Virus record (IMG/VR): IMGVR_UViG_3300027747_000649
Span: 1-56,672 of that record
Source: a virus
Taxonomy: Duplodnaviria; Caudoviricetes
DNA length: 56,672 bases
Strand: one strand, 5' to 3'
The notes beneath the pieces were generated by a model. The model did not search any database, was not told the origin of the DNA, and was given only the letters and a program-made list of their open reading frames with translations. The translations under genes were made by a program, and so were the position numbers. This document shows, piece by piece, positions 15,402 through 21,950 of the stretch; within the stretch, counting starts at the first letter, position 1; every line of letters begins with the position of its first letter.

Positions 15402-15443
15402 TTGCGATGCTTAGCATTCTACAGTAAACTACACCCATGTCAA
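15402..15443. promoter_or_regulatory. Overlapping divergent sigma70 promoters
   Basis: + strand TTGCGA-17-TAAACT (15402-15430); - strand TTGACA-16-TAGAAT (15443-15416); between divergent operons. Confidence 0.6.
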
Positions 15444-15581: not shown

Positions 15582-15785
15582 ATGGATGCTGCACTGGACT
15601 TGATGAAAGAACTGGTAATTACCGCCGCAATCATCTTCGGCATTATGTGCCTTTTGGCCTTGTGCTTTTGGATGTACCCGAGCATGACGGAGGTCAAAAA
15701 GATGGACTGCTCCCTTGTGGAGTTTAGCCCTGACGTGGCACTGGAAGTTAAACAAGCATGCCGAGAGGCAAGGAGTAAAAAATGA
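15582..15785 (+). CDS. Membrane-anchored hypothetical protein
   Basis: One TM helix, then DCSLVEFSPDV...KQACR. Confidence 0.65.
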   Translation: MDAALDLMKELVITAAIIFGIMCLLALCFWMYPSMTEVKKMDCSLVEFSPDVALEVKQACREARSKK

Positions 15786-16150
15786 AAAAACTGATTACAA
15801 CACTGGCTATTGCAACCCTTGCAGGGTGCTCATCTGATGCGGACGTTGCGTCGCAAAATATGTCTAAAGCCGCAGATAACTTTGAGGTGGCGCGGCGCGT
15901 TATTTTTTATAACGGCATCACAAATGAATATATGTTGACCATTGAGGGGTACTGCTCAATTTTTCCAGAATCAAAAAAGCTGTCGGTGGTTTGCAAGACT
16001 GGCCCCGGCGCTTACAAAAAGCATTACCTTGGTCTATCAGACAACGTGACGTTTTTTGTTGAACAACTTGATGCAAAAAATGTAGGCACAAGTTTTTATC
16101 GCGTGGTGTTTAAACCATCAACAATTATTCCTGATGTGGTGATGAAATGA
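15782..16150 (+). CDS. Phage lipoprotein
   Basis: Lipobox LAGC after a signal peptide. Confidence 0.8.
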   Translation: MKKLITTLAIATLAGCSSDADVASQNMSKAADNFEVARRVIFYNGITNEYMLTIEGYCSIFPESKKLSVVCKTGPGAYKKHYLGLSDNVTFFVEQLDAKNVGTSFYRVVFKPSTIIPDVVMK

Positions 16151-16374
16151 AAGTAAAAGACCTGATCGAAGCGTTACAGACCTACGACCAAGACCTGATG
16201 GTCATCCGCAGTGGATACGAAGGTGGCGTGGAAGAAGTAAGCAGCGTAGAACTTGAAGTCGTTGCGTTAAACGTTAATGAAGCGTGGTATTACGGAAGCC
16301 ATGAAACGATTGACGATCTTGAGAGCAATGAATATCCGGGCCATGAGCGCATCAAAGCTGTTTACATAAGTTGA
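16147..16374 (+). CDS. Hypothetical protein
   Basis: 75 aa, MKVKDLIEALQTYDQDL; ATGA-coupled. Confidence 0.75.
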   Translation: MKVKDLIEALQTYDQDLMVIRSGYEGGVEEVSSVELEVVALNVNEAWYYGSHETIDDLESNEYPGHERIKAVYIS

Positions 16375-16383
16375 GGAGTTGAC

Positions 16384-16605
16384 ATGAAAACAATCATCCA
16401 TGTAAACCAACACGTTATCAAAGCCAACGCCAAGAATGGCGCAAATGACCCTGCGCTGACGGTGAAGACGTACAAGACCACAACCTATGCACACGCAGTG
16501 ACGATCAACGGGCCGAGCCAAGTTATCTATTCAGAAAAGCCCCTATCCTGCGGTGCGCGGGTATGGATTGAGACTCAAGCAGAAGTATTCATTGACAAGG
16601 AGTAA
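16384..16605 (+). CDS. Hypothetical protein
   Basis: 73 aa, IHVNQHVIKAN...KPLSCGARVWIET; GAGGAG RBS. Confidence 0.8.
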   Translation: MKTIIHVNQHVIKANAKNGANDPALTVKTYKTTTYAHAVTINGPSQVIYSEKPLSCGARVWIETQAEVFIDKE

Positions 16606-16608
16606 GAC

Positions 16609-16845
16609 ATGAAGCCGTGCGCCATGTGCCCATGCAAACCGACAACCCCAGAGTTCCATAGAAATTTGGTAAGGAATATGTACGGCCAAATCGTAATGTC
16701 TGGCGGGTTCCCCTGCCATGACAAGCACCCTACAGCGCACGTCCTACATCCAGACGCTATTGGCAAAGATGGGGCGTTTCATACGCCGGACTGTGCGGGA
16801 TACAAATTGTGGGGCTTGACCCCGGATTTTAAGGAACAAAGATGA
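16609..16845 (+). CDS. Small Cys/His metal-binding protein
   Basis: PCAMCP...FPCH...CAG; AAGGAG RBS. Confidence 0.65.
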   Translation: MKPCAMCPCKPTTPEFHRNLVRNMYGQIVMSGGFPCHDKHPTAHVLHPDAIGKDGAFHTPDCAGYKLWGLTPDFKEQR

Positions 16846-16937
16846 AACGACAAACACGACTGGAAGTTTACGTCACGGTGCTATGCGCTGTGTGTGCGTC
16901 ATTGATTATTTGGAGGTTTTATGACTGGATGGCGTAA
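16842..16937 (+). CDS. Tiny membrane peptide (31 aa)
   Basis: ATGA-coupled; MKRQTRLEVYVTVLCAVCASLIIWRFYDWMA. Confidence 0.4.
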   Translation: MKRQTRLEVYVTVLCAVCASLIIWRFYDWMA

Positions 16938-17169
16938 GAGGACGATCATGGAAATGGCGCGGGAGGCTGGGGCGGTATTCCCTGCTGACGGTAGCTACCA
17001 CCAGTTTGAAAGACACGAAGACCTTGAAGCCTTTGCCGCGCTGGTGCGTGAAGATGAGCGTGAGGCGTGTGCAAAGGTTTGTGAAAGCATTAACAGCATT
17101 GAAGATTATTACGAAGAACGTACAGAGTTAGTTTGCGCTAAAGCCATCAAAGCAAGGGGACAAGCATGA
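16921..17169 (+). CDS. Hypothetical protein (EREACAKVC...AIKARG type)
   Basis: 82 aa, GGAGG RBS. Confidence 0.75.
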   Translation: MTGWRKRTIMEMAREAGAVFPADGSYHQFERHEDLEAFAALVREDEREACAKVCESINSIEDYYEERTELVCAKAIKARGQA

Positions 17170-17645
17170 CTGAAAAAGAAATCAACAAAGCATTTGATGA
17201 GGAATACATCAAGTACCGTGACGCATTTCCAAAAGACTACGACATACCAGCCTTGGCACAGCCAGCACCTGTGCAGTACCCATTGCCTGACGATATGTAC
17301 GACAGCAAAGACTGGCGGGATGCCGACTATGCGGGCAGAGTCGAATGGCTGCACACGATGTACGAATCGAGCAAGAGAACGCTTGATGCGTACACCACCC
17401 CACCCGCACAGCCAGCACCTGTGCAGGAGCCTGTGGCGATTGCCTTAAACACCGGAACAAAACAAGGTGTGAAGTGGCTGAAAAATGTTGAGCATCGTGT
17501 AAACCTTTACACCACCCCACCCGCAGCACAGCGTGAGTTTGTAGGGCTGACTGATGAGGAAGCACAATGGCTTTACGACAACTGCCGAACGCCATCTAAT
17601 TTGATTGATATGACTGAAGCCAAACTTAAGGAGAAGAACACATGA
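17166..17645 (+). CDS. Mosaic hypothetical protein (QEPVA / LYTTPP / GLTDEE / EAKLKEKNT modules)
   Basis: 159 aa with internal DNA repeats. Confidence 0.75.
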   Translation: MTEKEINKAFDEEYIKYRDAFPKDYDIPALAQPAPVQYPLPDDMYDSKDWRDADYAGRVEWLHTMYESSKRTLDAYTTPPAQPAPVQEPVAIALNTGTKQGVKWLKNVEHRVNLYTTPPAAQREFVGLTDEEAQWLYDNCRTPSNLIDMTEAKLKEKNT

Positions 17646-17917
17646 TGATTAAACGCGATATGGCTTTGGATAATTTAATCAAGGTCTGCCAAGAAACACT
17701 GCAAATCATTGGCGATATGGTTGAGGCCGACAGCGTGGCTTACTCCCGTGGCTACGAAGATGGCATGGCCGCTGAAGCGCAAGTGCAAAAAACTTTGAAG
17801 CCGTGGGTAGGGCTAACGGATGAGGAACAACAACAGGCGTACGAGCAATGGCAGAACGAAGGCTGGGGTGTTTTTTACCGAGCTATCGAAGCCAAACTCA
17901 AGGAGAAGAATACATGA
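17642..17917 (+). CDS. Hypothetical protein (WVGLTDEE / EAKLKEKNT modules)
   Basis: 91 aa; shares C-terminal modules with the previous gene. Confidence 0.75.
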   Translation: MMIKRDMALDNLIKVCQETLQIIGDMVEADSVAYSRGYEDGMAAEAQVQKTLKPWVGLTDEEQQQAYEQWQNEGWGVFYRAIEAKLKEKNT

Positions 17918-18048
17918 ACACTGAAGACGATGAATTTGAGCGCATCGAGCGTGAGATGCAGTGGCGGCAGATACCGGATGATCTGCCCAAGGCCATACCA
18001 TTCATTACCGAAGAAGAACTGCAACAACTTTTAAAGGACGAGACATGA
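17914..18048 (+). CDS. Small acidic hypothetical protein
   Basis: MNTEDDEFERIERE..., ATGA-coupled with AAGGAG RBS. Confidence 0.6.
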   Translation: MNTEDDEFERIEREMQWRQIPDDLPKAIPFITEEELQQLLKDET

Positions 18049-18326
18049 ACCCCGAACAAATACAACAGTTTCACATCAAAGAAAGCCACATGGCCGAAGG
18101 CATTAGTGCCGACTACGTGTGGTACGAAGCATCAATGATCCGCAACGCAATGGAGGCCAGCCTGCACCGCTTTGACAAGGTGGTCAGCGTCATGGAGGCA
18201 CGGCACAAAGAGCACATCAAAATGCTGCAAGATGTCATGGCAGAGAACCGTGCCCTTAAAGCTCGAATCAAAGATGACACCATTTCAATCGTTGCAAATG
18301 TAGGAACAAAAAATGATCCGAAGTAG
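18045..18326 (+). CDS. Hypothetical protein
   Basis: 93 aa, coupled within the operon. Confidence 0.65.
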   Translation: MNPEQIQQFHIKESHMAEGISADYVWYEASMIRNAMEASLHRFDKVVSVMEARHKEHIKMLQDVMAENRALKARIKDDTISIVANVGTKNDPK

Positions 18327-18594
18327 GCATCAATTGATCCGAGACATTTTGCTGGCCTCGGAGGACGGCTTGACCGTTAAGCAGATTGCAGAGGTTCTGG
18401 GTGATGACAACTACAGATCAGTGGCAAAGACGATAAAGCTGATCCACGGCGTGTACATTGACCGATGGATGGTCCCCAAGCGCGGCCAGTACGCGGCAGT
18501 GTATGACTGCGTAGAGGTTCCAGAAGATGCGCCGCACCCGACAGAGAGATACCTTCCACAAACCAAATGGCAACCAACGGAGCAAAGAGCATGA
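18313..18594 (+). CDS. Putative winged-helix DNA-binding protein
   Basis: IRDILLASEDGLTVKQIAEVL...VYIDRW. Confidence 0.6.
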   Translation: MIRSRHQLIRDILLASEDGLTVKQIAEVLGDDNYRSVAKTIKLIHGVYIDRWMVPKRGQYAAVYDCVEVPEDAPHPTERYLPQTKWQPTEQRA

Positions 18595-18917
18595 AACCAA
18601 TTGAATTGACAGTAGAAGAACTCCCGCACAGCGGCGATGTAGACCAGAACGGAGAGTTTCTTTTCCACTTGTACACATCCAACATGTGTGATGGGGAATT
18701 GGAAGAGGCTATGCCTGTGCTGATGAAATTATGGGAAGAAAATTTTGAAGTGAACTTGACCGTCACCATGAAAACAAGAGACCTCTTCAATCAATTGTTT
18801 GACATGTACAACGTGGGCGGCAAGATGGACTCAGAAGATGCCCCCCGTTTTCAAGCTCTGCGCAACGATTGCCAGTGGATCATTGACCAAATTGACAAAA
18901 TGAAAAAATTAACATGA
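18591..18917 (+). CDS. Hypothetical protein
   Basis: ATGA-coupled start at MKPIEL; acidic. Confidence 0.65.
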   Translation: MKPIELTVEELPHSGDVDQNGEFLFHLYTSNMCDGELEEAMPVLMKLWEENFEVNLTVTMKTRDLFNQLFDMYNVGGKMDSEDAPRFQALRNDCQWIIDQIDKMKKLT

Positions 18918-19102
18918 TCGACGTATACGCAACCGAAGTGCAGGCCGTGGATGAGGATAACAACTTGCTGTTCACTTTAAAAATGGTGGACGAGTACTGC
19001 TGCACAATGGAACTCTCCAAGCCTTTGTTGTTGAGTAAAGGCAACTTGGAAGAGGTGCTGGGCGCCGTAAGACAAGCTGTGAAGATGCTGAGGCTGGAGT
19101 GA
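18914..19102 (+). CDS. Hypothetical protein
   Basis: 62 aa, coupled. Confidence 0.65.
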   Translation: MIDVYATEVQAVDEDNNLLFTLKMVDEYCCTMELSKPLLLSKGNLEEVLGAVRQAVKMLRLE

Positions 19103-19539
19103 CACGCCCCATTTACGAGACGCCGGACGACCTTCACAATGAGGCTGATGTCCTGCGTCTCATCTCTAACTTATGGCCTTCTAAATTCCACAAGCTGCCC
19201 ATTCGCTATCACCTTGATTACGCAGCCACCAAGGAAAACGGAGCAGTTGTAGCGTACTTGGAAATCAAAGTGCGTAAACACTCAATGGACCAGATCAACA
19301 GGTGGGGAGGCTACATGCTCAGCCTTGCCAAATTACAGACCGCTGAGTCACTGTGCCGGATCAGTAAAGCCGTCTTCGTCCTTGTCGTGAAGTGCCCCGA
19401 GGGTGTGTACTGGGCAAAGATCACTGACTTTACGCAATTCCCCGTAGTGATTGCCGGCCGGACAGATCGCGGGGACTCGCAGGACGTAGAGCCTTGCGTG
19501 ATGATTCCTACGAAACTGTTTATTCCGTTAGCCAGCTAA
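19099..19539 (+). CDS. PD-(D/E)XK-fold endonuclease-like protein
   Basis: E...YHLDY...YLEIKVR catalytic-like pattern. Confidence 0.6.
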   Translation: MTRPIYETPDDLHNEADVLRLISNLWPSKFHKLPIRYHLDYAATKENGAVVAYLEIKVRKHSMDQINRWGGYMLSLAKLQTAESLCRISKAVFVLVVKCPEGVYWAKITDFTQFPVVIAGRTDRGDSQDVEPCVMIPTKLFIPLAS

Positions 19540-19950
19540 AAAAATTTCAGCGCAGCAGCCCCCAAGGGTGATAGCCACGGCTGTTCACTCACTGCCCAGA
19601 GGGCACACACAGCGCACTCCTAGCAAACCCATAAGGTAGCGATTCGTCGATAGGGCGTTTGTCTTCACCGCTTGCCGCCCAATCTTCCCCAGTCCCTCGC
19701 TAACAGGCTGGACGGCAGTTCATCTGGGGGTGTACCAGTGCCGGTGTTTACTTCCTCGCGGCCCATGCAGGCCCAGTGCTAACGTGAGGAGAACGGCTAC
19801 TGTAGGGGTGGGGGTGGATACCCATAAACGAAAAGGCCGCTTACAACTGCGTCCGGTAGGAACCTTACCTAATAAATCCACGACTCATCATTAGGTAAAG
19901 CGGAACGCATGTGTAAACGGCCTAACTCTCGTCGCTTCCTACGGCAACGG
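19540..19950 (-). ncRNA. Candidate structured non-coding RNA (~400 nt)
   Basis: No ORF of 60 aa or more; own promoter; long stems (19834-19923, 19698-19784) and a GUAGGAA/UUCCUAC loop complement. Confidence 0.55.
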
Positions 19951-19954
19951 TTCC

Positions 19955-19985
19955 ATTATAACCATACGGAATCGTTGCGTGTCAA
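19955..19985 (-). promoter_or_regulatory. Consensus-hexamer sigma70 promoter driving the candidate ncRNA
   Basis: TTGACA-19 nt-TATAAT (spacer longer than optimal). Confidence 0.6.
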
Positions 19986-19994
19986 GAAGTATTT

Positions 19995-20069
19995 TGGTTG
20001 CGGAGGCTGGATTCGCACCAGCGGTCTCTTGGTTATGAGCCAAGCGGATTCCTACTTTCCCACCCCGCG
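19995..20069 (-). tRNA. tRNA-Met(CAT), initiator-like
   Basis: CGCGGGG acceptor with C1:A72 mismatch, anticodon arm CTTGG-CTCATAA-CCAAG, T arm GCTGG-TGCGAAT-CCAGC, encoded CCA; 75 nt. Confidence 0.9.
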
Positions 20070-20075
20070 ATAAAA

Positions 20076-20354
20076 GTTGTTGGCAACCGAGAATCCCCAG
20101 TCCGACACGACCCTAATAGCTATCGCCATCTGTCTTTGCTTAACCAACACGGCTGGGGACTAATCATGGATGAACCCATATAGTCGTCAATCCCCATGCG
20201 TGTTAGTTGTTGGTGGCTCACATCAAGCAGTGTTTTTAAAACCAACTAACCGCAACGGCGCTAACCCGTTACACCACCAACACGGCTGAACCCGCTTGCA
20301 TCACCGCGCCCAAGCAAAACTTAGGGACTCCGCAAAAAGGCTCATGCGTCTTGG
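20076..20354 (-). ncRNA. Two-unit array of structured RNA cassettes with constant stems and variable inserts
   Basis: + strand repeats: CCAACACGGCTG at 20144 and 20277, GTTGTTGG at 20076 and 20206, CATGCGT at 20195 and 20343. Confidence 0.6.
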
Positions 20355-20356
20355 TA

Positions 20357-20389
20357 GAAAAAACTCCCACGTCTGAGGTGGGAGTAAAA
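20357..20389 (-). terminator. Rho-independent terminator
   Basis: ACTCCCAC-7 nt-GTGGGAGT stem followed by a T-run on the minus strand. Confidence 0.6.
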
Positions 20390-20432
20390 CTCAACCGGAG
20401 TACCATGAAACAACCGAAGTTGCAGGGCAATC

Positions 20433-20717
20433 TTACACGCAAGATTTTAACAAAGCAAGCGCATCATCCGGCCCTAACACTATGTGCAAGTTGTTTCCGG
20501 GCCACGAGTCGTGAAACTTTTTTTCGGCCGGCGACAGCTCTCGCGCAGAGGGCGGCTTCTTCCCGTCTTTCACTTCCAGCAAGAGAGTGTTGCCTCTGTA
20601 CCACACCAGTAAATCAAATGTTCCGCCGTCGTTGATCTTCTTGACGAATGCACCGCACGCCTCAAGGGCGCTCACGATCTGCGTTTCGTTGGCATCTCTG
20701 CGTGCTGCAAGTCTCAT
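20433..20717 (-). CDS. VRR-NUC/Holliday-junction-resolvase-like nuclease
   Basis: RRDANE...FDLLV...LLEVKDG...LSPAEKKFH. Confidence 0.8.
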   Translation of the reverse strand: MRLAARRDANETQIVSALEACGAFVKKINDGGTFDLLVWYRGNTLLLEVKDGKKPPSARELSPAEKKFHDSWPGNNLHIVLGPDDALALLKSCV

Positions 20718-20764
20718 AGGGTTTGTCCTAAGTAAATATTTTGCAAAACATATTGTATCGGGTG

Positions 20765-20794
20765 TTGACGAACCTGATATGTAGTAGGTACAAT
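20765..20794 (+). promoter_or_regulatory. Sigma70 promoter for the recombination operon
   Basis: TTGACG-18 nt-TACAAT upstream of an AGGAG RBS. Confidence 0.6.
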
Positions 20795-20823
20795 ACAACC
20801 TCACCTACCACACAGGAGTTACC

Positions 20824-21084
20824 ATGAAGAAAGAAAATGTTAAGTCTTCTGAAGTTCAGCATGAGCCAGAAGTTTTGGAAAGGTCAAAGGTTCTTGCCGC
20901 TCATTTGGCTGAGCTGCTCTACGCCCAAGAAGAAACCACTCAGGAAAAGATCGTTGCTGCTGGAATTGTTTTTTCATCAATGGCTGCTATGCACGGGGTG
21001 CCGCTACCTCACGCAATTAATTTATTGGTTGGCTGCTACGGGCTGGCTGATAATTTCTTTGAAACAGCGGGGCCAATGCAATGA
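20824..21084 (+). CDS. Hypothetical protein
   Basis: 86 aa, AGGAG RBS. Confidence 0.65.
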   Translation: MKKENVKSSEVQHEPEVLERSKVLAAHLAELLYAQEETTQEKIVAAGIVFSSMAAMHGVPLPHAINLLVGCYGLADNFFETAGPMQ

Positions 21085-21950
21085 AGTTGACCAACAACCT
21101 CGGCCTGCCTGACACCTTTGTCAACGCAATCTCCCGGCCCACCTACACCAAGGGTGACGCACAGATCAGCGCGACAGAGATACTCAACAGCCCGCGTATC
21201 GTGCAGCTCAAGCGAAAGCATTGGGACGATCTTGAAGAAGACGCAGCCGATATGGTCTGGTCGCTCTTTGGCTCGGCCGTCCACGAAGTCTTGCAACACG
21301 GCAAGGACGACCACCACATCGTGGAGGAGCGCATCCACACCGAGTATCTGGGCTGGAAGATCAGTGGTGCAATCGACCTGCAAGAAGTTTATGAAGACGG
21401 CGTTGTCATCAGCGACTACAAGGTCACCAGCGCATGGGCCGTGATGAACGAAAAGGCTGATTGGCACAACCAGTTAAACCTGTACGGCTGGCTTGTCGAG
21501 CGTGTCAAAAAGCAAAAGGTTAAATCTTTGCAGATCATCGCCATCGTTCGAGACTGGTCACGCCGCGATGCGGCCACACGCGAGGGCTATCCCAAAGCGC
21601 CAGTGACTGTGATCGAGCTGCCATTGTGGTCATACGCTGACCGTGAAACGTATATCGCTAAACGTTTAACGCTGCACAACGATGCGTTCTTTGCCGTACA
21701 CACAGGGCACGGCATGCCTGAGTGCTCAGCCGAAGAGATGTGGGAGAAGCCCACCATGTACGCAGTGATGAAGGAAGGCGGCAAGCGCGCCAAGAGCGTT
21801 CACATTAACAAGGCAGAGGCTGAAGTGGCCATGCCTTCAACAGGGTACTTTATCGAGGTACGTGAGGGTGACAGGACTCGTTGCTCTGGCTTTTGTCAGG
21901 TCAACAAGCAATGTGACCAATATCAAAAATATCTTTTAACCAAGGAGTAA
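21081..21950 (+). CDS. PD-(D/E)XK (RecB/Cas4-like) exonuclease
   Basis: ISAT...GSAVHEVL, ISGAIDL, ISDYKVT, QLNLY, C-terminal RC..FC....C; adjacent to ERF and SSB. Confidence 0.85.
   Translation: MKLTNNLGLPDTFVNAISRPTYTKGDAQISATEILNSPRIVQLKRKHWDDLEEDAADMVWSLFGSAVHEVLQHGKDDHHIVEERIHTEYLGWKISGAIDLQEVYEDGVVISDYKVTSAWAVMNEKADWHNQLNLYGWLVERVKKQKVKSLQIIAIVRDWSRRDAATREGYPKAPVTVIELPLWSYADRETYIAKRLTLHNDAFFAVHTGHGMPECSAEEMWEKPTMYAVMKEGGKRAKSVHINKAEAEVAMPSTGYFIEVREGDRTRCSGFCQVNKQCDQYQKYLLTKE

What the first reader, a model, noticed from the sequence alone, without database searches (positions are those of the whole stretch)
19540..19985. Promoter-driven ~400-nt structured RNA with a loop-loop complement and the same CAUG/CAGY motif
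Seen: TTGACA-19-TATAAT points into an ORF-free region. The RNA starts with hairpin GUUGCC-GUAGGAA-GCGAC. Next is a long stem AGGCCGUUUACACAUGCGUUCCG/CGGACGCAGUUGUAAGCGGCCU carrying an inner hairpin and an unpaired UUCCUAC that exactly complements GUAGGAA, followed by UUUU. A further domain pairs CGUUAGCA/UGUUAGCG and GCAUGGGC/GUCCAGCC. Inference: an attenuator-controlled large ncRNA. The genome has primase and helicase but no recognisable initiator, so a replication-primer or origin role is one speculative option; C4-like antisense control is another.
Basis: partly seen in the sequence, partly recalled or inferred. Interest (0 to 1): 0.72.

Follow-up and report, generated by a model that had tools for sequence, protein, structure and literature searches.

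The report
New phage RNA behind knotted terminator
This stretch of an uncultured freshwater phage encodes a real two-part non-coding RNA: a promoter-driven, knotted terminator hairpin followed by a 240-base intricately folded RNA of a widespread, uncatalogued family that usually sits ahead of phage DNA-replication genes.

Summary
The RNA lies on the minus strand. The promoter hexamers, first hairpin, long stem, U-tract and the 7-nt GUAGGAA/UUCCUAC complement are all present as described.

Two separable modules:
- **M1 (19965-19826):** a conserved -10 box, a 5' hairpin whose loop forms a pseudoknot with a bulge inside a long terminator hairpin, then a U-tract. In 27 relatives 96.6% of cells pair, and the 7-bp loop/bulge helix covaries, with 12 different 7-mer pairs among 29 modules.
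- **Core (19800-19556):** a ~240-nt multi-pseudoknotted RNA. The signature 19-mer hits 91 IMG/VR stretches and at least 119 metagenome stretches. It was not found in the GenBank phage or PLSDB plasmid collections by blastn, and the 9 signature hits in species genomes are short chance matches. Covariation is 0.381 against 0.138 shuffled.

Neither module matches any Rfam 15 family.

In relatives the core usually precedes a ParB-like/helicase/primase operon. In this lineage the intervening genes are inverted, yet the RNA keeps compensatory changes, so it works on its own. Biochemical function is unknown. A C4-like role is rejected; a primer role is not excluded.

First-reader notes on two other genomes describe what appears to be the same core.

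The parts
19995..20069 (-). tRNA-Met (CAT), immediately upstream of the promoter; context, same strand
   Evidence: ARAGORN; Rfam tRNA 57.7 bits. tRNAs lie upstream on the same strand in 9 of 76 family loci.
19955..19985 (-). Sigma-70-like promoter: TTGACA (19985-19980), 19-nt spacer, TATAAT (19960-19955)
   Evidence: Sequence. The -10 box is conserved at a fixed distance from hairpin 1 in 27 of 27 aligned relatives (A7 and A9 invariant; T6 and T11 at 90% or more). Promoter-like hexamers with spacers of about 15-19 nt recur in relatives.
19931..19948 (-). M1 hairpin 1 (S1): GUUGC / GCGAC with an 8-nt loop C+GUAGGAA (X = 19942-19936)
   Evidence: Fold. Helix 1: 5 pairs, 99.3% of cells paired, 3 with changes on both sides.
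19856..19862 (-). X' = UUCCUAC, a 7-nt bulge in the terminator hairpin that pairs with the loop of hairpin 1 (pseudoknot helix S2)
   Evidence: helix 2: 7 pairs, 5 with changes on both sides, 94.7% of cells paired. 12 distinct X/X' 7-mers among 29 unique modules.
19831..19923 (-). M1 long terminator-type hairpin: 5' strand 19923-19901, inner hairpin 19900-19863, 3' strand 19855-19834, U-tract 19834-19831
   Evidence: Fold z -6.2. helices 3-5: 99.1%, 88.0% and 95.4% of cells paired, and 19 of 24 pairs changed on both sides. Three T of the T-run are invariant in 27 of 27.
19801..19830 (-). C/U-rich, G-poor spacer between terminator and core
   Evidence: Sequence. Similar C-rich spacers occur in relatives. 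In some relatives an extra element (M2) is inserted here.
19556..19800 (-). Core: ~240-nt multi-pseudoknotted RNA, member of a new family
   Evidence: nhmmer E 4.3e-54 at 19798-19559. CM R1 220.9 bits at 19556-19800. Structure counts.
19692..19710 (-). Invariant signature CAGCCUGUUAGCGAGGGAC within hairpin H4 (19712-19688). Its loop AGCGA (19701-19697), with U19702, pairs with UCGCUA (19642-19637)
   Evidence: Invariant in 54 of 54. Pseudoknot pair Y/R: CG 38, UA 13, UG 3. Used as the search pattern.
19649..19684 (-). Core helix H5, whose loop GGUGA (19669-19665) can pair with UCACC (19571-19567) near the 3' end
   Evidence: H5: 9 of 9 pairs changed on both sides. Loop/3'-end pair AU 38 / GC 37 in the hmmalign matrix; only two states, and linked to clade.
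19538..19544 (-). U7 run after the core; possible 3' end. It overlaps the stop codon of the converging PDDEXK_14 gene (19099-19539, + strand)
   Evidence: Sequence. Pfam PDDEXK_14 E 4.8e-32. No canonical hairpin directly precedes it, so the 3' end is undefined.

Best explanation
The stretch is a two-module non-coding RNA gene on the minus strand.

**M1.** A sigma-70-type promoter starts an RNA whose first 5-bp hairpin has an 8-nt loop. Seven of those loop bases pair with a 7-nt bulge inside a long G+C-rich hairpin that ends in a U-tract. With a 1-nt first connecting loop and a 0-nt second, this has the layout of a classical H-type pseudoknot locked onto an intrinsic terminator. I infer that most transcripts stop here, giving a compact RNA of about 115 nt, and that a fraction reads through.

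**Core.** Read-through makes a ~240-nt RNA with nine nested helices and several pseudoknots around an invariant 19-nt signature. It belongs to a large, uncatalogued family of aquatic-phage RNAs. Ancestrally the pair heads an early operon that runs into ParB-like, SF2 helicase and Toprim primase genes.

**This lineage.** The small-gene block behind the RNA has been inverted and the replication operon has its own promoter. The RNA has still kept its fold through compensatory changes. So I read it as an autonomous, stable structured RNA, made next to phage tRNA genes, that acts as a folded RNA or RNA-protein particle on a conserved partner, rather than as a leader for a neighbouring gene.

**Shown:** sequence features, both folds by covariation, family size, synteny, the inversion, absence from Rfam.
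**Inferred:** termination and read-through, stability, action in trans, and the partner.
For: **M1**
- Window fold z -6.2.
- In 27 unique relatives 96.6% of cells are paired against 82.0% shuffled. Covariation is 0.530 against 0.231 (0 of 500 shuffles reach it; slid controls at most 0.136). 27 of 36 pairs changed on both sides.
- 12 distinct X/X' 7-mers among 29 modules.
- The -10 box and T-run are conserved.

**Core**
- The signature pattern hits 91 IMG/VR stretches and at least 119 metagenome stretches.
- nhmmer finds 90 near-full-length copies, 75 unique.
- RNAalifold: 23 of 31 pairs compensatory.
- My structure on 54 sequences: 87.3% paired against 72.4%, covariation 0.381 against 0.138 (0 of 500), slid controls at most 0.105, 42 of 66 pairs changed on both sides.
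- Many G-U pairs in this orientation fix the strand.

**Not catalogued**
- Rfam 15 gives only tRNAs.
- No blastn match in 50,697 phage records or PLSDB plasmids.

**Synteny**
- 25 of 48 loci with at least 2.5 kb downstream carry same-strand ParB-like, helicase and primase homologues (Pfam).

**Autonomy**
- Converging genes of different kinds follow the core in the window, L005, L006 and L010.
- Homologues of the window's intervening genes are on the same strand in L086, L094, L091, L131, L088 and L144, but on the opposite strand in L005, L006, L126, L061, L095 and L076.
- Within the five detached copies examined (77-94% identical), 19 of 66 pairs vary: 9 by compensatory change and 2 by a kept one-sided change.
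- The ParB-like operon has its own TTGACA-16-TAGAAT promoter.
- tRNAs lie upstream on the same strand in 9 of 76 loci.

**Expression**
- A lake metatranscriptome contig spans 19674-19986, across the terminator into the core.
Against: - There is no direct evidence for a start, an end, termination, read-through or stability. The RNA-library evidence is one low-depth contig (depth 4.8). It also covers 38 nt upstream of the predicted start, flanking genes are covered at similar depth, and DNA carry-over cannot be excluded.
- The whole 411 nt is not unusually stable.
- In 51 of the 70 loci that could be scored (of 76 in all) the next ORF is on the same strand. In 34 of 76 an AUG sits 0-13 nt (mostly 5 nt) after the conserved UUGGGG. 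Both fit a cis-acting leader.
- 8 of the 19 variable pairs in the detached copies include a non-pair, partly from alignment error.
- The shuffle controls ignore relatedness and are not probabilities.
- No partner or activity is known.
- The 3' end in the window is undefined.
Confidence: 0.5

Rival explanations
1. Cis-acting operon leader. M1 gates transcription, and the core conditions the polymerase or the message for the long early/replication operon behind it. It would work as a processive antiterminator, a ligand- or protein-sensing switch, or a ribosome-loading site. The window's copy would then be a leftover after the inversion.
For: - The next ORF is on the same strand in 51 of the 70 loci that could be scored, of 76 in all.
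- 25 of 48 loci have the ParB-like/helicase/primase operon downstream.
- The core always follows a promoter-proximal terminator module and has no room for a promoter of its own.
- An SD-like UUGGGG plus AUG occurs in 34 of 76 loci.
- HK022 put shows that a phage RNA alone can make polymerase terminator-resistant (PMC9378689, passages read).
Against: - The detached copies keep the fold by compensatory change, with four different kinds of converging gene behind them.
- The distance to the next gene varies from -29 to 576 nt, and the gene identity varies.
- ORFs starting at the AUG are mostly 2-20 codons, and the AUG is absent in the window.
- The core lies after, not before, the M1 terminator.
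Confidence: 0.25
2. Replication-initiation RNA. The promoter-driven transcript acts at the DNA as a primer, R-loop former or helicase-loading scaffold for phages that have a helicase and a primase but no recognisable initiator. M1 would set how often initiation happens.
For: - Strong synteny and same-strand orientation with the replication operon, kept in the window at +4.25 kb even after the intervening block was inverted.
- The element persists on its own, as an origin would.
- The promoter is conserved.
Against: - 23 of 48 loci with enough flank show no helicase homologue downstream.
- Another first-reader note places an iteron-like 17-bp repeat cluster at the far end of the replication operon (e1-6301574, not checked here). 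That would be a more conventional origin.
- A tightly folded, pseudoknotted RNA is not what R-loop formation needs.
- Nothing here tests DNA-level function.
Confidence: 0.1
3. C4/CI-type antisense immunity RNA. The short M1 RNA would pair through its 7-mer with target copies in the same or another transcript, blocking expression of downstream genes and giving phage-specific immunity.
For: - The complementary 7-mers differ between close relatives. For example, the window has GUAGGAA while L019 has GUGAGAA behind a nuclease gene that is 98% identical. This recalls heteroimmunity determinants; the comparison is recalled, not tested.
Against: - No Rfam C4-type match at E up to 10 in the window, or at E up to 1 in relatives.
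- No further copy of X or X' at any conserved position in 29 loci.
- The 1-nt/0-nt loop layout is that of an intramolecular pseudoknot.
Confidence: 0.04
4. Not an RNA feature: chance complementarity, a protein-coding region, or a double-stranded DNA site.
For: The full 411-nt fold is no better than shuffles.
Against: - Covariation in both modules.
- G-U pairs are strand-specific.
- Single-base indels between homologues, and no conserved ORF.
Confidence: 0.01

Closest known systems
GOLLD and ROOL RNAs (large ornate orphan RNAs, often phage-borne and next to tRNA genes; Rfam families)
   Same: Phage-encoded, large, multi-pseudoknotted, found mainly in environmental sequence, sometimes beside tRNA genes, function unknown. 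The adjacency of GOLLD and ROOL to tRNAs is recalled. Their RNA-only assemblies are known to me from the abstract listing of 10.1101/2024.12.08.627333.
   Different: No match to either model. The core is smaller (~240 nt). It is always preceded by a pseudoknotted terminator module and is syntenic with a ParB-like/helicase/primase operon.
P1/P7 c4 RNA (Rfam C4 family) and P4 CI RNA
   Same: A short structured phage RNA made from the leader of an operon, with short complementary segments that covary. In P4 the controlled operon holds the replication gene (recalled).
   Different: No model match. Only one complementary pair, used within the molecule. No target site near a downstream ribosome site.
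HK022 put RNA
   Same: A phage leader RNA that acts through its fold, without a dedicated protein (PMC9378689, passages).
   Different: By those passages put is about 70 nt with two stem-loops; that it lies upstream of the terminators it suppresses is recalled. Here the core is about 240 nt and lies after the module's terminator. Homology could not be tested because I held no put sequence.
ColE1 RNA II / RNA I replication control (recalled)
   Same: A promoter-driven structured RNA next to replication functions, with kissing-type complementarity.
   Different: I did not look for an antisense partner gene. No evidence of an RNA-DNA hybrid. This phage has its own primase.

Membership tests
Rfam C4 antisense RNA / c4-a1b1 type | Match to the covariance model at or near the gathering score | tested here: not met
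   No such match in the window at gathering or at E up to 10, nor in 17 + 7 relatives' loci.
Rfam C4 antisense RNA / P4 CI RNA | Additional target copies of the complementary segment in the transcript (a2/b2, seqA/seqC), at the downstream ribosome site | tested here: not met
   In 29 unique modules, other copies of X or X' are sporadic and at no conserved distance.
Intrinsic (Rho-independent) terminator | G+C-rich stem directly followed by a U-tract | tested here: met
   Stem 19923-19834 followed by UUUU, then CGUUU. Three T of the T-run are invariant in 27 of 27 relatives.
Intrinsic (Rho-independent) terminator | Transcripts end at the U-tract | not testable with these tools
   Only contigs were available. 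One RNA-library contig bridges the site.
H-type pseudoknot | Hairpin-loop bases pair with a distal strand, short first connecting loop, covariation in both helices | tested here: met
   S1: 5 pairs. S2: 7 pairs, 5 with changes on both sides. 1 nt lies before X and 0 nt after it in the aligned sequences.
GOLLD / ROOL / other Rfam large RNAs | Match to the family model | tested here: not met
Riboswitch or cis-regulatory leader | Constant position before one class of gene, with an expression platform | tested here: inconclusive
   The next ORF is on the same strand in 51 of the 70 scorable loci, but its distance and identity vary. At least four loci have converging genes instead.
   Window 19556-19800, 220.9 bits, positions 1-244 of 244. 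The window was part of the seed alignment, so this match holds by construction. Independent copies score up to 229.6 bits.

The most novel reading that the evidence does not exclude
The core is a transcription-made replication-initiation RNA: a primer, R-loop former or helicase-loading scaffold. It would serve a large group of aquatic phages that carry a ParB-like protein, an SF2 helicase and a primase but no initiator protein. The pseudoknot-locked terminator in front of it would be the throttle that sets how often replication fires.
Probability: 0.1. Interest if true: 0.9.

Novelty: new variant of a known kind. Interest (0 to 1): 0.72.

Why it matters
Large, intricately folded RNAs with an invariant core are rare, and each new class has tended to reveal new biochemistry.

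- **Abundance.** This RNA is common in freshwater and other environmental phages: 91 IMG/VR and at least 119 metagenome stretches carry the exact signature.
- **Absent from catalogues.** It is missing from Rfam 15 and, by blastn, from the GenBank phage and PLSDB plasmid collections.
- **A defined genomic setting.** It sits between the nin-type nuclease genes or tRNAs and the replication operon.
- **A new design in front of it.** In M1 the loop of a 5' hairpin knots into a bulge of an intrinsic terminator. I have not seen this design described (recalled; see Tried and rejected for the literature searches). It occurs in at least four sequence types.

Together the two modules give a testable entry into how these phages, relatives of pelagiphage-type podoviruses, control early transcription or start replication.

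Tried and rejected
**Folds and pairings**
- The whole 411 nt folded as one unit is not special (z -0.78).
- A closing helix between the core's 5' flank and 3' tail looked good in the window (CAGUAGCC/GGCUGCUG, 8 bp). Family-wide it is no longer than in mismatched controls (mean 5.9 against 5.64). A GCCGUA/UAUGGC pairing exists only in a subset.

**Coding**
- An AUG lies within 16 nt (mostly 5 nt) after UUGGGG in 34 of 76 loci. The ORFs are mostly 2-20 codons, and the AUG is absent in the window.

**Bacterial genomes**
- The 9 pattern hits in species genomes are short matches only. nhmmer aligns about 25 nt in three of them, and cmsearch aligns only about 17-54 nt around the signature in each of the nine. 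By my arithmetic, about 17 chance hits are expected for 18 fixed bases in 596 Gb.

**Cultured relatives**
- The phages nearest by helicase (MW202426.1, Acidovorax phage AP1) have the ParB/helicase/primase operon, but I see no long non-coding gap before it in their annotation and no R1 match.
- The GenBank phage collection could only be searched by blastn, not with the model.

**Second target for the 7-mer**
- None found. GUAGGAA also occurs in the D-loop region of the neighbouring tRNA; I treat that as chance.

**Expression**
- Parts of the stretch without cover in the RNA library (19211-19612) say nothing.

**Literature**
- Three searches gave no description of this RNA. That covers only the held library and those terms.
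- Supplements were not consulted.

**Diversifying selection on X/X'**
- Window against L019 differs at 2 of 7 positions in X, against 14% overall. This is not distinguishable from ordinary helix drift.

Full report
**What is there.** The window is a 56,672-base IMG/VR virus record. By large terminase its nearest cultured relatives are the freshwater phage DSL-LC04 (54.6%) and Pelagibacter phage HTVC027P (52.2%).

The finding lies on the minus strand, in a 1.2-kb gene-poor gap. Reading 5' to 3' on that strand, the gap holds:
- a small nuclease-like ORF (20717-20433; PHROG endonuclease);
- a terminator (20385-20363);
- a repeat region;
- tRNA-Met (20069-19995);
- the promoter TTGACA (19985-19980), a 19-nt spacer, and TATAAT (19960-19955);
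- the RNA of the finding;
- the converging PDDEXK_14 gene, which ends at 19539.

**The observation.**
- Every element of the first 125 nt is present as described. This part folds at -53.7 kcal/mol against -32.3 +/- 3.45 for shuffles (z -6.2; 0 of 200 as good).
- The full 411 nt is not special (z -0.78).
- No ORF exceeds 54 aa.
- Rfam 15 gives only the tRNA, both at gathering score over the whole window and at E up to 10 in 19300-21200.

**Relatives show two modules.** I found 51 loci through the neighbouring nuclease. Only the 3' 260 nt of the region was widely conserved: 77-94% identity in five of those loci, with obvious compensatory changes.

An invariant 19-mer from that part (19710-19692) gave these hits:
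- 91 stretches in IMG/VR;
- 9 in 185,579 species genomes. These are short chance matches of about 17-54 nt.

blastn found nothing in 50,697 GenBank phage records or in PLSDB plasmids.

**The core (19800-19556).**
- nhmmer finds 100 hits, 90 of them near full length and 75 unique.
- RNAalifold on 75 sequences predicts 31 pairs, 23 of them compensatory. One pattern hit, L083, was dropped because it is not homologous.
- Mutual information on an HMM alignment added long-range pairs.
- I then counted a structure of 66 pairs on 54 sequences, each at most about 95% similar to any other (a sequence-matcher ratio, not aligned identity). It has nine nested helices plus three pseudoknot helices and two single tertiary pairs.

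| Measure | Observed | Control |
|---|---|---|
| Cells paired | 87.3% | 72.4% shuffled |
| Covariation score | 0.381 | 0.138 shuffled (0 of 500 reach it) |
| Covariation, partner slid 1-3 columns | - | at most 0.105 |
| Pairs changed on both sides | 42 of 66 | - |

- The best-supported long-range pair joins the loop of the invariant hairpin (YAGCGA) to UCGCUR 60 nt downstream. Its first pair is CG 38, UA 13, UG 3.
- Frequent G-U pairs fix the RNA strand as the window's minus strand.
- A second pseudoknot, GGUGR with YCACC near the 3' end, rests on a two-state, clade-linked pair (AU 38, GC 37). It is less certain.
- A covariance model (R1, 244 positions) scores the window at 220.9 bits. It also finds more divergent copies: L014, L045, L038 and a truncated L008.

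**M1 (19965-19826).** Upstream of nearly every core there is a terminator-type module. The window's type recurs in 29 unique copies.

| Measure in 27 aligned copies | Observed | Control |
|---|---|---|
| Cells paired | 96.6% | 82.0% shuffled |
| Covariation score | 0.530 | 0.231 shuffled (0 of 500 reach it) |
| Covariation, slid controls | - | at most 0.136 |

Five changed on both sides and 94.7% of cells are paired.
- The 7-mers take 12 different forms among 29 modules, for example GUAGGAA/UUCCUAC, GUCGGAG/CUCCGAC, GUAGCAA/UUGCUAC, GUUGCGA/UCGCAAC and GUGAAGG/CCUUCAC.
- One nucleotide always precedes the 7-mer in the loop and none follows it. That is the layout of an intramolecular H-type pseudoknot (inference from the classical geometry, recalled).
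- The -10 box (TAnAnT) sits at a fixed distance from the hairpin, and three T of the T-run are invariant.
- At least three further sequence types share the plan of 5' hairpin loop, complementary bulge in a long stem, and U-run.
- M1 also occurs without the core, for example in L019, whose nuclease is 98% identical to the window's, and in L001 and L009. The two modules are therefore separable.
- None of the types matches Rfam.

**Context.**
- Of 76 unique core loci, the nearest downstream ORF is on the same strand in 51 and on the opposite strand in 19. Five lacked flank and one had a gap of more than 600 nt. Some of the "opposite" calls are artefacts of my simple ORF picking.
- Pfam on 130 downstream ORFs: SF2 helicase domains 13, ParB_N 6, NinB 5, PAPS reductase 5, C5 methylase 3, Toprim 3.
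- Pfam on 109 upstream ORFs: DUF968 10, YbcO 5, NinG 2.
- tblastn with the window's own proteins shows that 25 of 48 loci with at least 2.5 kb downstream carry, on the same strand, the order ParB-like, helicase, primase.
- The window has the same operon 4.25 kb downstream on the same strand (helicase and Toprim confirmed by Pfam). The ParB-like protein itself has no Pfam hit.
- tRNA genes lie upstream on the same strand in 9 of 76 loci. L006 has 2 and L010 has 4.

**The window's lineage is detached.**
- The genes between the RNA and the operon (15782-19539) are on the plus strand.
- Their homologues lie downstream on the same strand as the core in L086, L094, L091, L131, L088 and L144. They lie on the opposite strand in L005, L006, L126, L061, L095 and L076. 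This indicates an inversion of the block.
- Converging genes behind the core are confirmed in the window (PDDEXK_14), L005 (sigma-factor-like), L006 (endonuclease) and L010 (MazG-like, nucleotide kinase).
- The ParB-like operon has its own promoter here: TTGACA-16-TAGAAT, 15443-15416.
- Among the five detached copies examined (77-94% identical), 19 of 66 pairs vary: 9 by compensatory change, 2 by a kept one-sided change, and 8 with a non-pair in some sequence.
- The fold is therefore maintained without any same-strand gene behind it.

**Expression.**
- Runs with near-identical DNA are mostly labelled freshwater or lake metagenomes; only one of those DNA runs, X2, was laid, so no habitat is claimed from the small shares.
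- One lake metatranscriptome holds a 313-nt contig over 19674-19986. It crosses the M1 terminator into the core.
- That contig has depth 4.8. Flanking genes are covered at similar depth, and contigs show neither ends nor strand. This is weak support for read-through and nothing more.

**Reading.**
- Both folds, the family, its synteny and its absence from catalogues are shown.
- Inferred: M1 ends most transcripts as a compact ~115-nt RNA and lets some through. The core is an autonomous folded RNA rather than a leader. I give this about 0.5.
- Rivals: a cis-acting operon leader (0.25), a replication-initiation RNA (0.1), C4/CI-type antisense control (0.04).
- The last fails both the model test and the target-site test.

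**Earlier notes of this scan.** Two first-reader notes on other genomes share short words with this core: e1-6281351, "upstream of the replication operon", and e1-6309050, "downstream of the c4-like RNA". They list the same CAGCGA/TCGCTG pairing. I reached the pairing and the synteny independently.

**Literature.** Three searches of the held library found no description. I read passages of PMC9378689 for the comparison with put. The abstract listing of 10.1101/2024.12.08.627333 was seen only.

Noticed in passing
window 20075-20161: Transcriptome contigs of two named-but-coded organisms (runs X23, X24) carry an exact 87-nt match to this stretch of the repeat region upstream of the tRNA, flanked by unlike sequence. 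A DNA run (X2) has a variant that skips 20074-20208 (135 nt), so the number of units varies.
   Followed up: no
window 20354-20076; L104, L098, L091, L131, L073, L070, L059, L110 between M1 and core: A third conserved non-coding element (GGGUUAGCGCC ... ACACUGCUUNAUGUGAGC inside a long hairpin) sits between M1 and the core in several relatives. In the window, similar copies lie upstream of the tRNA. It is not in Rfam.
   Followed up: partly
window 15782-19539: This block of small plus-strand genes is inverted relative to its homologues in relatives, where the genes run on the same strand as the RNA and the replication operon.
   Followed up: partly
window 15416-15443 (minus strand): Near-consensus promoter TTGACA-16-TAGAAT (11 of 12) in front of the ParB-like/helicase/primase operon.
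   Followed up: no
M1 promoters in window, L019, L129, L056, L069, L065: The spacer between the -35 and -10 hexamers is repeatedly 18-19 nt rather than 17. This could mean dependence on an activator, or a host polymerase with other preferences.
   Followed up: no
L019 4700-5090: The closest relative by nuclease (98% identity) has the same M1 type, but a different, unrelated non-coding stretch of about 390 nt in place of the core, followed by an ORF that looks like an HNH endonuclease from its Cys and His motifs, by eye.
   Followed up: no
window 20055-20049: The 7-mer GUAGGAA of the M1 loop also occurs in the D-loop region of the adjacent tRNA-Met. Probably chance.
   Followed up: no
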